A stretch of DNA of 64,000 nt from a virus: IMG/VR virus record IMGVR_UViG_3300021168_000016, positions 32,001 to 96,000 of that record; one strand, given 5' to 3'. The notes under the pieces are model-generated. The model saw only the letters and a program-made list of their open reading frames with translations, did not search any database and was not told the origin of the DNA. The position numbers and the translations under genes were made by a program. Positions 17,880-55,221 of the stretch are shown here, piece by piece. Numbering within the stretch: position 1 is the stretch's first letter; each line of letters starts with the position of its first letter.

Positions 17880-17893
17880 TACACCTCCTTAGA

Positions 17894-17925
17894 AACATCC
17901 CCACCCCCGAAAGAGTGGGGATATT
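17894..17925 (-). terminator. hairpin 3' of the GGY-NN unit (terminator or processing handle)
   Basis: ATCCCCAC/GTGGGGAT stem with TTCG-containing loop on minus strand. Confidence 0.6.
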
Positions 17926-17926
17926 T

Positions 17927-18006
17927 TTGCTTTACCTTACCCCACCGGACCTCACCACAACGTACCTAACCCCGCCAGACCTCACCAGACCAGACCCTGC
18001 CGTGTC
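17927..18006 (-). ncRNA. orphan (GGY-NN)x16 pentamer guide-like RNA (VIPR-type)
   Basis: minus strand GACAC GGCAG GGTCT GGTCT GGTGA GGTCT GGCGG GGTTA GGTAC GTTGT GGTGA GGTCC GGTGG GGTAA GGTAA AGCAA. Confidence 0.8.
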
Positions 18007-18015
18007 ATTTCAAAA

Positions 18016-18282
18016 TCATGCGGCCTGTTTAGCCTTGACTACAGCACGCTTCCCAGTAAAATCACCGTTTGCTTCAGATTGGAAAGTGTACATGCCATCA
18101 ATTCCAGTTTGGACTGTTCCATCAAGAGTATGGTAAGCTTTTAGCCGACCTCGCTTCGTCTTCTTGACGAAAATTGGTCGGTAGACAACAGCGATGACCT
18201 CTAGACCGTTAGCATCCTTTTCTCCATGACCTGGCTCGATAGTAAAACCTAATCCGAGCAGGCTATTTGATTTCTCTGCCAT
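18016..18282 (-). CDS. hypothetical protein; its 5' codons resemble the decoded downstream guide
   Basis: AAGGAG RBS and TAGCGGTATA promoter-like motif upstream. Confidence 0.7.
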   Translation of the reverse strand: MAEKSNSLLGLGFTIEPGHGEKDANGLEVIAVVYRPIFVKKTKRGRLKAYHTLDGTVQTGIDGMYTFQSEANGDFTGKRAVVKAKQAA

Positions 18283-50429: not shown

Positions 50430-50900
50430 ATGGTCTACTTCATTCAAAGTGCCTGCCCAAAAGGGCTTATCAAGATAGGTAATTCGGATAAACCCTTAAC
50501 CAGGTTGAAAGAACTTCAAACAGCTAATGGTTACAAACTGACATTCCTGAAGATTATTCAGGGAGGTTATCAGGAAGAATTAATCACAAAGAAGAGATTC
50601 AGGCAGTTCCGTGTTTTGGAGGGCGGAACCGAGTGGTTTAAACCAGAAAAGGAACTACTCGATTACATCAAATCACTGGTATTAGAACAGGCATTTGAAA
50701 TGCCTACTACTTACCAAGAAATACCTGGAAAGTATGATCCGAGTATTATATCACAAACAGCACTACTTTCTTTGTCTAGTCGAAGACAACTTTCAAAGAG
50801 GACTGAGATAAGCAATGAACAACTTCTTTCAACGGTGAAGAAGCAAGAATTACCTTCACGAATTGATTTTTCGTTACAAATCAAACTAAGGAGAATATGA
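50430..50900 (+). CDS. GIY-YIG/T5orf172 family nuclease domain protein
   Basis: VYFIQ...IKIGNS..PLTRLKELQTAN...EWF. Confidence 0.8.
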   Translation: MVYFIQSACPKGLIKIGNSDKPLTRLKELQTANGYKLTFLKIIQGGYQEELITKKRFRQFRVLEGGTEWFKPEKELLDYIKSLVLEQAFEMPTTYQEIPGKYDPSIISQTALLSLSSRRQLSKRTEISNEQLLSTVKKQELPSRIDFSLQIKLRRI

Positions 50901-50901
50901 T

Positions 50902-51555
50902 ATGAGTACAGCAGAAGTAATTCAGTTTGAGGAATCTGAATCTCAAGAGATTTCTCTTACAAAGATGTATGAAATCGCAGTAGAATCACTAAGTCCCGTC
51001 GGATTCGGACGATACTATGAACGAGAATATCCGGCAACACCTGTGGAACAAAACAATAAAGAGACGTATGAAGAACGGACTTGGATGAAACGCCTCTGGA
51101 TAAACGAAGACGGTAAAGTCTTCATTCCTGGAGTATCATTCAAAGGGGCGTATGTAAACGCTGCGGGACAGAATATGCTCCCTGATAGAGTTCCAAATAC
51201 TGGGAATAAAGGGACTTACACGAAACACTTCGCTGCTGGTTTCCATGTTATCAACAATGTTGTTACTGAATATACTGAAGCAGATGTTGTCAGGAATAAA
51301 TGGGGAAAGTGGTTACATGTTCCCGCAAATGCACAACGAGGAGGGAAGACAAGGGTTATGCGCTGCTTCCCAACAATCCCAAAGTGGGCCGGCAAACTAC
51401 AGGTAATCACCCATGATCCTTGTTTGACTAAAGATATCCTAAAGCGTTTCGGAGATGCAGCAGGGTTAGTAATTGGCGTCGGTTCTCTTCGTGTCCAAAA
51501 CAACGGAATGTGGGGGCAATTCCGAGTAGTTTCTGTAGAAGAAAAAGCTTTTTAA
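50902..51555 (+). CDS. stand-alone Cas7/Csm3-like RAMP protein (Vipr-like effector)
   Basis: N-terminal beta strand then ESLSP; FIPGVSFKGA resembles the RAMP IPGSSLKG motif; C-terminal Gly-rich loop GVGSLRVQNNGMWGQFRV; immediately followed by the pentamer array. Confidence 0.8.
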   Translation: MSTAEVIQFEESESQEISLTKMYEIAVESLSPVGFGRYYEREYPATPVEQNNKETYEERTWMKRLWINEDGKVFIPGVSFKGAYVNAAGQNMLPDRVPNTGNKGTYTKHFAAGFHVINNVVTEYTEADVVRNKWGKWLHVPANAQRGGKTRVMRCFPTIPKWAGKLQVITHDPCLTKDILKRFGDAAGLVIGVGSLRVQNNGMWGQFRVVSVEEKAF

Positions 51556-51879
51556 GATTCGATGCGATGCAATACGCTGAAATATGATAGGATTTGATGG
51601 AATATAATCTAATCGGATTAGATTTGATAAGATACGAAGTATTTTTATACTGGAATTATGATAGGATCAGATCAAATCTGATGGAATCAAATCGGATAAA
51701 ATAAGATCGAATGTGATCTGAGAGAATGAGATTTAATTTGATAAGATATGAAGTATTTTTATACTGGAATTATCATGCGATGAGATAAGATGTAATATAA
51801 TCTGATACCATCAGCCAAGATCTGTTTTGATGGGACCGGATGCGATATGATACGAGATTTTTCACTTTCGGAGAATCTC
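51556..51879 (+). ncRNA. array of three (RAT-NN)n guide-like RNAs (16, 18, 16 pentamers) with identical 24-nt linkers and terminal hairpin
   Basis: units 51556-51635, 51660-51749, 51774-51853; linker GAAGTATTTTTATACTGGAATTAT at 51636 and 51750; final GAGATT...AATCTC hairpin. Confidence 0.85.
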
Positions 51880-51880
51880 T

Positions 51881-52585
51881 GTGCTACAAGACTCCCTCGA
51901 CAAAATAATCGGAACATACTTTGCAGGAATTACTCGATCAAGTTTTACTTACAAAGACAGAGTCTACCCACCACAAAATCTTTTAGTAAGTCATTTGTTG
52001 TTTAGAGGATACACTTGTCCTGAAAATTGTGGAGGGTGTTGTCCGCGATTTTCTCTGGATTACCTGACCTCAGAGTACTGTCCGATGCCACAAGTCAAAC
52101 TCAGGGAAGTTGACTTTAATGGGAGTAAGATTCCCATTATATCCGATATGCAACTTGATCATCAGGACCACCATTGCAAAAATCTGACTAAATCAAACGG
52201 CAGATGCGGAATTCACGGAAACCAACCATTTTCATGTGATTTTGAATTATGTCGATTTCTAACCTTCAATGACAGAAATGTATTAACTTCCAAATTATTC
52301 GGTAGAGGCTGGGCTTTTCTTCGAACCGATAACGAAAGAGGAGCTCTTTGTGAGATGCTTCCAGTCACTAAAGAAACGATTGACGAAGTCATAAGGAAGC
52401 TGATCCGATTAAAGCAGTGGGCAGAGTATTTCGGCGTCGATCATTGCTTAGACGCTATAATCCAATGGGCAAGATCAGGATCAGGAATGGATCTTCTTAT
52501 CCCGAAACACAAAAAGGTGGGACTAAATATAAAAAGCATTTCCGGCCCGCAAGAAGAAGACCCGTTAATTCAAATAGAGTTATGA
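51881..52585 (+). CDS. YkgJ/CxxCxxCC cysteine-cluster protein
   Basis: CPENCGGCC...CKNL...GRCGIH..QPFSC. Confidence 0.7.
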   Translation: MLQDSLDKIIGTYFAGITRSSFTYKDRVYPPQNLLVSHLLFRGYTCPENCGGCCPRFSLDYLTSEYCPMPQVKLREVDFNGSKIPIISDMQLDHQDHHCKNLTKSNGRCGIHGNQPFSCDFELCRFLTFNDRNVLTSKLFGRGWAFLRTDNERGALCEMLPVTKETIDEVIRKLIRLKQWAEYFGVDHCLDAIIQWARSGSGMDLLIPKHKKVGLNIKSISGPQEEDPLIQIEL

Positions 52586-53185: not shown

Positions 53186-53467
53186 ATGCCGGAAGATAGA
53201 ATGAAAGTTATTGCAGCTAAACTGCTCAACCTATTCGGTGCTAGAGGCCAGCACTGGATAAGAGGTGAAGAAAGCAACGGTAATGGCGACTACTGCCTGA
53301 TAGGTGGTATGAAAGAGTTAAACCTTACTCATGAAATGAAAACGTTACAAAGAGCTGTACGTGAAAAGACAAAGCATACTTCCATCGCAGCATTTAACGA
53401 CCAGCACTACTGGCCTACCATCAAAGACTTTCTCTGCAGTTACATCCGTCCGAAAGTAAAGAAATAA
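53186..53467 (+). CDS. hypothetical phage protein (DUF6197-like)
   Basis: WIRG...YCLIGG...IAAFND. Confidence 0.5.
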   Translation: MPEDRMKVIAAKLLNLFGARGQHWIRGEESNGNGDYCLIGGMKELNLTHEMKTLQRAVREKTKHTSIAAFNDQHYWPTIKDFLCSYIRPKVKK

Positions 53468-53479
53468 AAGGAGGCTGTC

Positions 53480-55221
53480 ATGCCACTAAATGTACCACTT
53501 CTACGCGAAATTCAGAAGCAGATACTGGAGAAGCCCAACACTTTCTTCATGAGAAATTGGATAAGAAGAAAAAAGTTTGAGGGTTCTACCTACATTAATG
53601 ATGAAGGACTCAGTACTAGATACGCTGAGTGTGGAACTGTTGGCTGTATAGCTGGGACCGCCTGCCTGATAATGGAGCGTGAAGGGAAACTTTCCGAACT
53701 TAACGGCGCAGATGACATCAAAAGCGGGGCAATTGACCTACTCGGCCTTAAGGACGTAGGAAATTCACTCTTCTACGTGGATAACTGGGACTGTGAAATT
53801 CGTAAGGAGTACAGAGAAGCACCAACAGCTAAGTGTCGGGCTGTTGCGGCGTGTAAACAGATCGATCTGTACATCGAACAACACAAAGGAGAATAGCTAT
53901 GCCAAAGTTAAACGTACCTCTACTGAGAGAAATACAGAAGCAGATCCTCAGGGAACCAAATGGCTTCTTCATGAGATCTTGGATACGCAGAAGAAGTCAT
54001 GATAATGAAGAATTCTTTTCTGGCGATATTGTAGCAGGAGGATCAGATCTACAAAGATTTCCTGAGTGTGGTACAGCTGCATGTATTGGAGGCTGGGCAG
54101 TATTACTTTCCGGAGGCACATATAACGAGAACGTAGAACCTATAGCCAAATCCCTTCTAGGCCTTTCTAGTACTTGGCTCTTCCAAGTTTCGACTTGGGA
54201 TAGAGATCTCCAAGGAAAGTATTGGTCTGAGCCATCAGTCGAGTGTCGTGCAGCTATCGCTGCTGAACAAATCGAACGTGTCATTCAACGCTACGGAGAA
54301 AAGGAGAGTGAAAGTGAAAAAGTCACTAAATGTGAAGCTACTTAGAAAGGTGCAGAAGCATATCATGAAGGAGCCTAAGCGTCTCCTCATGGGAGAGTGG
54401 CTAGTCACCAAATCTAAGAAAGTTCCCCAGTTTGAGAACGATGCAGGCGAATGGGAACATTTTCCGAAGTGTAATACAGCTGCCTGTATAGCCGGATGGG
54501 CAGTTATGTTACATGATAAACATCCTCCACGAGGAAAATCAATTGAGACTAGAGCTACCAAGATATTGGGTGGTAGCTCTATGGACAGCTTGTTTTATAC
54601 CTCTCTGTGGAAGCTAGAGCACGAGTTCAACACAGCAGAAACTCCTCGTCAACGAGCTAAGATAGCCGTTAAAGAGATCGATCACTTCATCAAAGAACAT
54701 GAGAAGAAAAAAAGGAGTTTAGGTAAGTAGCTTTGGAAGTTAAATAAGGATGAAAGGAAAATCAAATGCCGCTAAATGTTAAACTGCTTAGAAAGATACA
54801 GAAACGTATCCTAACCCAACCACAGGCATTCTTTATGCACGACTGGATACGTAGAAAAGAGTATTCCTCCAACAATACATTCCAGAATCCAGACACAGGT
54901 AAAGTGACAGAATTTACCACCTGTGGTACTGCTGGCTGTATAGCAGGATGGGCTATCCTGTTAACAGAGAAGAAAGGAGATGCGAAACTCATCTGGTCTA
55001 GCCAAATCCAGGAGAAGGCCACAGAGATACTTGGCCTAAGCCCCGGTGAGGACCTCATATTTGGTTCACCAAACTGGGGGACAGAACTTAGCGATGCTTA
55101 CGAAAATGCTAAGTCTGATCTTTGTCGTGCTGCTGTAGCGGTGAAAGCAATAGACAACCTGATTGAGCGGCACAAGGCAAAGAAACCTAAGGCTGTATTA
55201 AGCTCCTTTGAGAGCTTCTAA
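53480..55221 (+). repeat. four tandem paralogous CDSs (53480-53896, 53899-54345, ~54314-54730, 54766-55221)
   Basis: shared LNVxLLRxxQKxIxxxP..M..W and C[G/N]TxxCIxG motifs. Confidence 0.8.

What the first reader, a model, noticed from the sequence alone, without database searches (positions are those of the whole stretch)
50430..51879. Solo Cas7/RAMP-like gene with a (RAT-NN)n guide array: candidate gapped-code RNA-guided system
Seen: a 217-aa protein with RAMP-like motifs (FIPGVSFKGA; Gly-rich GVGSLR..NNGMWGQF). Starting at the first base after its stop codon are three units with strict 5-nt periodicity: a constant GAT/AAT triplet plus a variable dinucleotide. NN strings: unit 1 TC GC GC AC GA AT AG TT GG AT CT CG TA TT AA AC; unit 2 AG CA CA CT GG CA CG AA AA CG GT CT AG GA TT TT AA AT; unit 3 GC GA AA GT AT CT AC CA AA CT TT GG CG GC AT AC. 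Units are joined by an identical 24-nt linker with an AGTAT/ATACT hairpin. No cas1/2/5/6 gene or true CRISPR repeat is visible in the window. Known: Cas7 RAMPs polymerise along guide RNA with fixed periodicity. From memory, recently described viral VIPR systems pair such a RAMP with GGY-NN guides. Inference: this is a RAT-NN variant in which each subunit binds a triplet and displays NN for pairing. The upstream GIY-YIG/T5orf172 gene, one base before the RAMP start, could be a recruited nuclease.
Basis: partly seen in the sequence, partly recalled or inferred. Interest (0 to 1): 0.95.

Follow-up and report, generated by a model that had tools for sequence, protein, structure and literature searches.

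The report
Phage VIPR system with GAT-coded guides
A phage carries an RNA-guided DNA-binding protein of the recently described VIPR kind whose three guides use a non-standard GAT repeat, one of them aimed at related phages' copy of the gene next door, while the same genome also holds six standard-code guides that its own protein probably cannot read.

Summary
50902-51555 is a Vipr: its family profile hits SUSP1 Vipr (E 3e-11) and the model has a RAMP fold. Three guides follow (43 of 50 scaffolds RAT, none GG). Non-GGY scaffolds were already reported computationally (bioRxiv 2026.10.21.760802), and this scan noted a GAY VIPR on other DNA (e1-5377753), so this is a variant of a known system.

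New here:
1. Guide 3, read with the one-base skip on wobble positions, fits the neighbouring YkgJ-like gene of related phages at 11 of 13 codon classes (1000 shuffles: at most 9). The phage's own copy fits 8.
2. Among 94 related loci, all 59 Viprs with G in scaffold position 2 have Arg at residue 195; 21 of 23 with A lack it. This protein has Ser.
3. The 125-kb, probably complete genome has no second vipr gene and no usual vap gene, yet holds six GGY guides. Two fit their own neighbour genes.

Likely: a private GAT code for its own silencer, plus GGY guides that borrow rivals' Vipr. No support for T5orf172 as a recruited nuclease. Targets of guides 1 and 2 not found; nothing tested at the bench.

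The parts
50430..50900 (+). T5orf172/MUG113 (GIY-YIG-like) gene, 156 aa; role in the system unsupported
   Evidence: Pfam PF13455 E 1e-6, PF10544 E 6e-5; only such gene in the genome; no homologue but itself among 34 candidates; not found in 160 vipr loci
50902..51555 (+). vipr gene, 217-aa RAMP; Lys136, Phe156, Ser195 at the positions that covary with the guide scaffold
   Evidence: Family profile hits SUSP1 Vipr, PDB 36pp, E 3.4e-11; AF2 pLDDT 92, Foldseek hits Cas7/Csm3; 739 related clusters; covariation
51556..51635 (+). Guide 1: 16 RAT-NN units; target not found
   Evidence: searches gave nothing above chance
51636..51659 (+). Linker 1 (24 nt, identical to linker 2); weak hairpin; holds the -10 box of a promoter-like site spanning 51624-51651
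51660..51749 (+). Guide 2: 18 RAT-NN units; target not found
   Evidence: searches gave nothing convincing
51750..51773 (+). Linker 2; holds the -10 box of a promoter-like site spanning 51738-51765
51774..51853 (+). Guide 3: 16 units; first 13 fit related phages' allele of the downstream YkgJ-like gene under the one-base skip
51851..51883 (+). Predicted 3' hairpin after guide 3; its 3' arm covers the likely ribosome-binding site and start codon of the next gene
   Evidence: fold z -1.7; sequence
51881..52585 (+). YkgJ-like (CxxCxxCC) gene, 234 aa; the phage's own allele of the gene that guide 3 fits in relatives
   Evidence: Pfam PF03692 E 2e-4, just under the cut-off; 420 homologues
52268..52306 (+). 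Own near-target of guide 3: 15 of 26 read bases, 8 of 13 codon classes; Ser at residue 137 where 91 of 119 homologues have the Gln that the guide predicts
17932..18006 (-). Solo canonical GGY-NN guide (15 units), no vipr gene near
17893..17926 (-). Strong 15-bp hairpin after the solo GGY guide
   Evidence: z -4.6, 0 of 200 shuffles as stable
18016..18282 (-). 88-aa gene just upstream of the solo guide; its codons at 18223-18267 are the guide's best own-genome match (22 of 30), and a homologue from another contig fits better

Best explanation
This is a phage VIPR system with a GAT/AAT scaffold. SHOWN here (sequence and computation): the protein is a Vipr; three guides follow it; guide 3 fits the downstream YkgJ-like gene of related phages under the one-base-skip code with the skip on the wobble base, and the phage's own allele fits worse; the residue at position 195 tracks scaffold position 2 across the family and this protein has the A-type state; no second vipr gene and no usual vap gene were found, yet six GGY guides are present, two fitting their own neighbour genes. 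TAKEN FROM THE SUSP1 PAPERS, not tested here: one Vipr subunit binds each five-base unit, holds the triplet, presents NN, forms an R-loop on double-stranded DNA and blocks transcription. INFERRED: the Vipr loads the GAT guides and silences genes of co-infecting related phages. The GGY guides are solo guides that work only when a rival brings a GGY-reading Vipr. The scaffold switch keeps this phage's own effector from being diluted or redirected by GGY guides, its own or a rival's. Guides sit next to the gene whose rival allele they hit, so guide and resistant allele are inherited together after recombination.
For: Profile hit to SUSP1 Vipr; RAMP fold. Guide 3 against 119 YkgJ-like homologues: best 11 of 13 codon classes, 1000 shuffles at most 9, guides 1 and 2 only 6 and 7; four homologues of 62-67% identity carry the 11-class match, self 8. 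On DNA of 59 viral loci the top skip-1 hits (21 of 26, in 2 loci) fall in that gene in codon phase; 12 shuffles reached at most 19, skips 0, 2, 3 at most 19. Arg195 present in 34 of 34 (first set) and 25 of 25 (hold-out) G-scaffold Viprs, absent in 7 of 9 and 14 of 14 A-scaffold Viprs. Nearest relatives L201-L203 (43-45% identical, Ser195) have GAY arrays. One Vipr hit only, with two profiles; the same profile found a distant Vipr at E 1e-14 in another record. Contig ends overlap by 202 nt at 94% inside one gene, so the genome is probably whole. Solo GGY guides: best own-genome hits 22 of 30 and 21 of 30 lie 217 and 406 nt away, wobble-phased (0 and 3 of 100 shuffles as high); one fits a homologue at 12 of 15 classes against 9 for self. 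GGY>GAY is among the substitutions the SUSP1 paper lists, and its text says GGY perturbation abolished silencing. Solo vrRNAs that redirect another element's Vipr are shown in 10.64898/2026.10.15.759431.
Against: No expression, binding or silencing data. No target for guides 1 and 2 or for the four arrayed GGY guides (6 of 9). The best guide-3 matches are protein-level; DNA of those four homologues was not available, and an exact 10-unit pattern found 0 viral contigs. The covariation is only partly freed from kinship: 4 independent pairs on well-supported branches, 3 same way, 0 opposite, p 0.25. Two GAC loci keep Arg195 (L121, L185), and some Ser195 loci tolerate several GGY units (L210, L232), so the code is not strict. 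The GGY guides here include 12 of 88 units with A at position 2, mostly at their 5' ends. CheckV rates the record 87% complete. SUSP1 needs Vap1 in natural infection and this genome lacks the family's vap, so the system could be weak or decaying. Next-door targeting is not a family rule: 13 of 221 guides at p<=0.05, about what chance gives.
Confidence: 0.62

Rival explanations
1. One relaxed Vipr reads both scaffolds (G-purine-pyrimidine), so all nine guides in the genome belong to one system.
For: Only one vipr gene for nine guides. Two arrayed GGY guides begin with GAT/GAC units and share a 7-base 5' context with guide 1. Mixed GGC/GAC guides exist at L269. Loss of Arg195 could relax rather than switch the pocket.
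Against: 0 of 50 units in the cognate array start GG. 0 of 59 G-scaffold loci lack Arg195. The mixed locus L269 keeps Arg195. Solo GGY guides also occur in a related, 90%-complete phage record with no Vipr hit (L305).
Confidence: 0.17
2. The phage has two systems: this GAT one and a canonical GGY Vipr that is missing from the assembly or too distant to detect.
For: CheckV 87%, record classed linear. An earlier, unchecked note describes another phage with both a GAY and a GGY VIPR (e1-5377753). The four-unit GGY array has the staggered one-base overlaps of complete systems.
Against: Contig ends overlap within one continuous gene. Three searches (family profile, phrog_4652, a distant Vipr) and a G-loop motif screen find only the known gene; the single-sequence search was insensitive, scoring the known gene only E 0.66. 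No vipr gene flanks the GGY array.
Confidence: 0.12
3. The T5orf172 nuclease has replaced Vap and is recruited by the Vipr filament to cut the target, giving RNA-guided homing of the cassette next to the YkgJ-like gene.
For: The gene ends one base before vipr; the usual vap is absent; guide 3 fits rivals' allele 415 nt downstream, the geometry of free-standing homing endonucleases whose sites lie hundreds of bases away (PMC2988022). VIPR types III-V carry predicted nucleases.
Against: Never seen beside another vipr; a singleton; one-base gene spacing is normal in this dense operon; free-standing GIY-YIG/HNH genes are common phage passengers, and an HNH gene lies just beyond the YkgJ-like gene.
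Confidence: 0.08
4. The array is a microsatellite or decayed repeat unrelated to the protein.
For: RAT-NN period-5 runs are common as microsatellites in viral contigs.
Against: Those have at most 4 distinct NN in 8 units and no Vipr; here 10-12 per tract, placed at the stop codon of a Vipr, with 139 of 160 related loci carrying callable period-5 arrays and a codon-phased target for guide 3.
Confidence: 0.01

Closest known systems
VIPR type II, phage SUSP1 Vipr/vrRNA (bioRxiv 10.64898/2026.04.26.720920 and .720927; PDB 36pp)
   Same: Stand-alone RAMP, array of about 100-nt five-base-periodic guides after the gene, wobble-phased one-base-skip fit to a phage gene, no cas genes.
   Different: Scaffold GAT/AAT, not GGY. 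By my hand count on the alignment, SUSP1 Asp177/Trp178 (G-loop) and Arg138 (thumb) correspond to Ser195/Leu196 and Phe156 here. No vap gene found; no pseudoknot tail seen; 16-18 units.
Non-canonical VIPR arrays (GAC/NN, CAC/NN, WGT/NN, TGH/NN) in bioRxiv 10.64898/2026.10.21.760802
   Same: Vipr-fold protein next to five-base repeats with a non-GGY triplet.
   Different: In the passages and methods section read, that work reports motifs and folds only: no targets, no residue code, no co-occurring GGY guides. Its Fig. S10 could not be seen and may list GAT.
Solo vrRNAs of F5 satellites and SUSP1-family phages (bioRxiv 10.64898/2026.10.15.759431)
   Same: GGY guides without a cognate vipr gene, aimed at related elements and matching self less well.
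   Different: Here they sit in a phage that keeps a Vipr of another scaffold class, and two fit the rival allele of their own neighbour gene.
Class 1 CRISPR Cas7/Csm3
   Same: RRM-based RAMP fold with thumb and G-loop (Foldseek E 1e-7, TM about 0.5).
   Different: No Cas1, no Pfam RAMPs hit, no repeat-spacer array; period 5 with two read bases rather than contiguous pairing.
Free-standing homing endonucleases (T4 seg/mob; PMC2988022)
   Same: A mobile-looking cassette whose target is a related phage's allele of a nearby gene.
   Different: Recognition is RNA-guided and, on present evidence, silencing rather than cutting.

Membership tests
VIPR | Vipr protein: RAMP with RRM core, thumb and G-loop, homologous to described Viprs | tested here: met
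   Profile hits SUSP1 Vipr E 3.4e-11; AF2 model and Foldseek
VIPR | Minimal locus without cas genes or CRISPR array, usually viral | tested here: met
   Virus record with terminase; no Cas1 or RAMPs match; no CRISPR-type repeat family in the window. Cas5 and Cas6 profiles were not searched separately.
VIPR | Guides of alternating fixed triplet and variable NN, five-base period | tested here: met
   43 of 50 RAT scaffolds, 10-12 distinct NN per guide
VIPR (canonical GGY form) | Scaffold GGY, or the paper's listed variants NNNGG, YNNNG, NNNNG | tested here: not met
   0 of 50 units start GG, 47 of 50 have A in the middle; listed variants; GAC/NN variants accepted as divergent VIPR
VIPR | One-base-skip target code, skip on the wobble position | tested here: met
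   Computationally, for guide 3 only: 11 of 13 classes, 1000 shuffles at most 9; DNA 21 of 26 for skip 1 against at most 19 for other skips
VIPR | vap accessory gene (typical, not universal) | tested here: not met
   Family vap in 76 of 83 loci with enough flank; best hit in this genome E 0.89
VIPR | Structured constant 3' tail | tested here: inconclusive
   Identical 24-nt linker but weak fold; no Rfam match; also reads as a promoter
VIPR | Guides expressed, bound by Vipr, and repress a target | not testable with these tools
   Needs bench work or RNA runs
Class 1 CRISPR-Cas | cas operon with repeat-spacer array | tested here: not met

The most novel reading that the evidence does not exclude
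The cassette is an RNA-guided homing or drive element. A Vipr with a private GAT code, immune to hijack by GGY guides, has swapped its usual Vap for a GIY-YIG-like nuclease and cuts related phages' allele of the gene next door, so repair copies the cassette across. Meanwhile stand-alone GGY guides scattered in the genome turn rivals' own Vipr against rival alleles of their neighbour genes. The nuclease-free version (two codes, silencing, guide linked to a resistant allele) is my best explanation and far more likely.
Probability: 0.08. Interest if true: 0.9.

Novelty: new variant of a known kind. Interest (0 to 1): 0.6.

Why it matters
VIPR is a small programmable DNA binder with only the GGY form tested at the bench. 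This locus gives first target evidence (among the papers found) that a non-GGY scaffold keeps the one-base-skip code. It also gives a testable protein-to-scaffold code: residue 195 with scaffold position 2, residue 156 with position 1. If that holds, GAT, GGY, CGC and other Viprs could be used side by side as non-interfering tools. The genome also suggests why scaffolds diversify (escape from solo-guide hijacking) and why guides sit where they do (linkage to a resistant allele).

Tried and rejected
RAT-NN pattern scan of viral contigs: 119 stretches, all microsatellites, no Vipr. Single-protein searches: no viral locus, no phage record, no Pfam family, no solved structure; only the profile reached SUSP1 Vipr.

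Targets for guide 1: 2 viral hits extending to 20 and 24 of 32, as chance gives; 0 of 44 related records. Guide 2: 3 genome hits of 23, 26 and 23 of 36, about the number expected by chance, the best with an in-frame stop; 0 of 44 records. Guide 3 exact 10-unit pattern: 0 viral contigs. No window or genome guide clearly fits vipr or vap genes (one GGY guide reached p 0.01 among 18 tests on Vipr proteins). One arrayed GGY guide scored p 0.005 on an overlapping reading frame, one of 18 tests, not pursued.

Next-door targeting as a family rule: rejected, 13 of 221. A GAY guide of L203 resembles vipr genes only marginally (19 of 24, shuffles 18, self 18). Hammerhead or other known RNA in the linker: no Rfam match.

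No RNA holder was listed for the locus; that is no evidence on expression. The complex prediction for Vipr with the T5orf172 protein was not available, so that question is open. Cluster membership and source names of the sister-phage proteins could not be looked up. The careful tree did not finish; quick and FastTree trees were used, and the window protein sits on a long branch.

Full report
VERDICT. The locus is a real VIPR system with a non-canonical GAT/AAT guide scaffold: a new variant of a known kind. The added value lies in a target for one guide, a residue code for the scaffold, and six canonical guides in the same genome that the resident protein probably cannot read. Nothing was tested at the bench.

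OBSERVATION. RAT fills 15 of 16, 17 of 18 and 11 of 16 slots; 100 simulated windows reached at most 7 of 16. RAT-NN microsatellites from 119 viral stretches have at most 4 distinct NN in 8 units and no Vipr.

SETTING. The window lies in a single 125,421-base virus record with terminase and clamp-loader genes. CheckV gives 87%, but the last and first 202 bases align at 94% inside one continuous gene, so I read it as a circular genome broken at a variable site.

PROTEIN. It has no Pfam family but 739 related clusters at E up to 0.001. A profile of 139 of the best 150 hits SUSP1 Vipr, PDB 36pp, at E 3.4e-11. The AF2 model has pLDDT 92 and matches Cas7/Csm3 chains. No Cas1 or Pfam RAMPs match is in the genome.

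SCAFFOLD CODE. I fetched the best 80 of 176 viral and the best 80 of 555 metagenomic relatives. Arrays could be classed in 66 and 73 of them; after removing proteins over 80% identical, 51 and 43 remained. Scaffolds were GGY (most), GAY, GTY, CGY, CTY and AGY. Positions were picked on the viral set and checked on the metagenomic set. Arg at residue 195 is present in 59 of 59 loci with G at scaffold position 2, in 2 of 23 with A and in 10 of 12 with T. Phe156 is present in all 84 loci without C at position 1 and absent in 9 of 10 with C. The window protein has Ser195 and Phe156, and its nearest relatives (43-45% identical) have Ser195 and GAY arrays. The A state needs at least 14 changes on a tree built without those columns, but only 4 pairs are independent on well-supported branches (3 same way, 0 opposite, p 0.25). 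By hand count on the alignment, residue 195 is SUSP1 Asp177 and residue 156 is Arg138. The structure paper assigns these to G1 and G2 respectively, the reverse of the covariation here. I infer that the G2-reading Arg sits in the G-loop in this family; that is untested.

TARGET OF GUIDE 3. Under the one-base skip each NN gives the first two bases of a codon. Guide 3 has no own-genome DNA hit above shuffles at its neighbour gene, but its best own-proteome hit is the YkgJ-like gene 415 nt downstream (p 0.03 genome-wide; 0 of 100 shuffles within 10 kb). Among 119 homologues (of 420 found, 120 listed including self) the best fit is 11 of 13 codon classes; 1000 shuffles reached at most 9, guides 1 and 2 reached 6 and 7. 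I left out the last three units because they are near-constant between guides. Self fits 8 of 13, with Ser where 91 of 119 homologues have the predicted Gln. On DNA of 59 more distant viral loci the two best skip-1 hits (21 of 26) are in this gene in codon phase, above 12 shuffles (at most 19) and above other skips. Guides 1 and 2 found no target.

SOLO GGY GUIDES. A genome scan found six canonical guides: window 17932-18006 (minus), a staggered four-unit array at G000:C1:104786-105074 and one at 110088-110162. No second vipr gene was found, though the profile detects a distant Vipr elsewhere at E 1e-14. The two single guides have their best own-genome matches in the adjacent genes, wobble-phased: 22 of 30 at 217 nt and 21 of 30 at 406 nt, reached by 0 and 3 of 100 shuffles. 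The first fits a homologue at 12 of 15 classes against 9 for self; homologues of the second target were not fetched. The four arrayed guides have no identified target. A related 90%-complete record also has GGY guides beside its clamp-loader gene and no Vipr hit (L305). So all 3 guides with a candidate target (of 9) point at the gene next door. Across the family this is not a rule (13 of 221).

PARTNERS. A winged-helix-like vap (label from its sequence pattern and the paper's description, no Pfam hit) follows vipr in 76 of 83 loci with enough flank but is absent here. The T5orf172 gene has no tblastn hit in 160 loci; 0 of 100 neighbour proteins (98 of 99 cluster representatives plus two more vap genes) hit its families; it is a singleton. 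Recruitment is unsupported.

LINKER. Its hairpin is weak. A TTGATA-16-TATACT site spans the last units and the linker; at 10 of 12 it is the best of 11 sites in 3.7 kb, where shuffles give 8.9 sites. The two copies are not independent. Either a constant tail or an internal promoter, or both, is possible.

MECHANISM. Vipr subunits coat a GAT guide one per unit and silence the matching double-stranded DNA of a co-infecting relative, by analogy with SUSP1. The GGY guides act through a rival's Vipr, as solo vrRNAs do. The scaffold switch would insulate the resident effector, and adjacency would keep each guide linked to a resistant allele. The last two steps are inference. Confidence: VIPR membership about 0.95; one-base-skip code for the GAT guides about 0.85; full two-code model 0.62.

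LITERATURE SEEN. 10.64898/2026.04.26.720920: whole text and a term search of its supplement PDF; figures and data files not seen. 10.64898/2026.04.26.720927: parts 1-2 of 6. 10.64898/2026.10.15.759431: parts 1-3 of 8 and passages. 10.64898/2026.10.21.760802: passages and section 4.22; it reports GAC/NN and other motifs beside Vipr folds; Fig. S10 not seen. PMC2988022: passages. Searches found no paper giving targets or a residue code for non-GGY scaffolds; unseen figures and bioRxiv supplements may bear on that. An earlier unchecked note of this scan describes a GAY VIPR on another genome.

SCORE. Interest 0.6: a variant of a new and actively studied system, with several sharp, cheap tests. 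The nuclease-homing reading is 0.08 likely and would deserve 0.9.

Noticed in passing
window 17932-18006 (minus) and 18016-18282 (minus): Solo canonical GGY guide with a strong hairpin; fits homologues of the 88-aa gene just upstream better than the phage's own copy.
   Followed up: yes
L001 4787-5075 (G000:C1:104786-105074): Four GGY guides with one-base staggered overlaps after a queuine tRNA-ribosyltransferase-like gene in a QueC/FolE-like cluster (those two labels recalled from motifs, not from a call); no vipr gene; targets not found.
   Followed up: partly
L001 10089-10163 (G000:C1:110088-110162): Solo GGY guide after the clamp-loader gene; antisense, wobble-phased 21 of 30 match in the next gene.
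   Followed up: partly
L305 8705-8870: GGY guides just before the clamp-loader gene of a related phage record with no Vipr hit; similar neighbourhood to the guide above.
   Followed up: partly
L121-L280: Vipr family uses GGY, GAY, GTY, CGY, CTY and AGY scaffolds; Tyr/Met in place of Phe156 goes with C at position 1 (9 of 10).
   Followed up: yes
L269 302-1900: Guides mix GGC and GAC units (44 and 22) beside a Vipr with Arg195: a natural relaxed case.
   Followed up: no
L138 4109: A GGY guide fits a neighbouring gene with a serine-recombinase-like motif (label recalled; score 48 against shuffle maximum 36).
   Followed up: no
L201-L203, L188, L216: Several GAY loci have RecA and phosphoesterase-like neighbours; L188 and L203 lack the usual vap.
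   Followed up: partly
window 51851-51883: The hairpin after guide 3 covers the likely ribosome-binding site and start codon of the YkgJ-like gene.
   Followed up: no
window 53186-55221: Five short, similar-looking ORFs in tandem, several starting with the same motif: a paralogue array of unknown function.
   Followed up: no
G000:C1:1-202 and 125218-125419: Contig ends overlap at 94% inside one gene, suggesting a circular genome with strain variation.
   Followed up: yes
L345 (G040): A distant Vipr with a SUSP1-like G-loop and a long GGY array in a fragment that also carries a YkgJ-like gene.
   Followed up: partly
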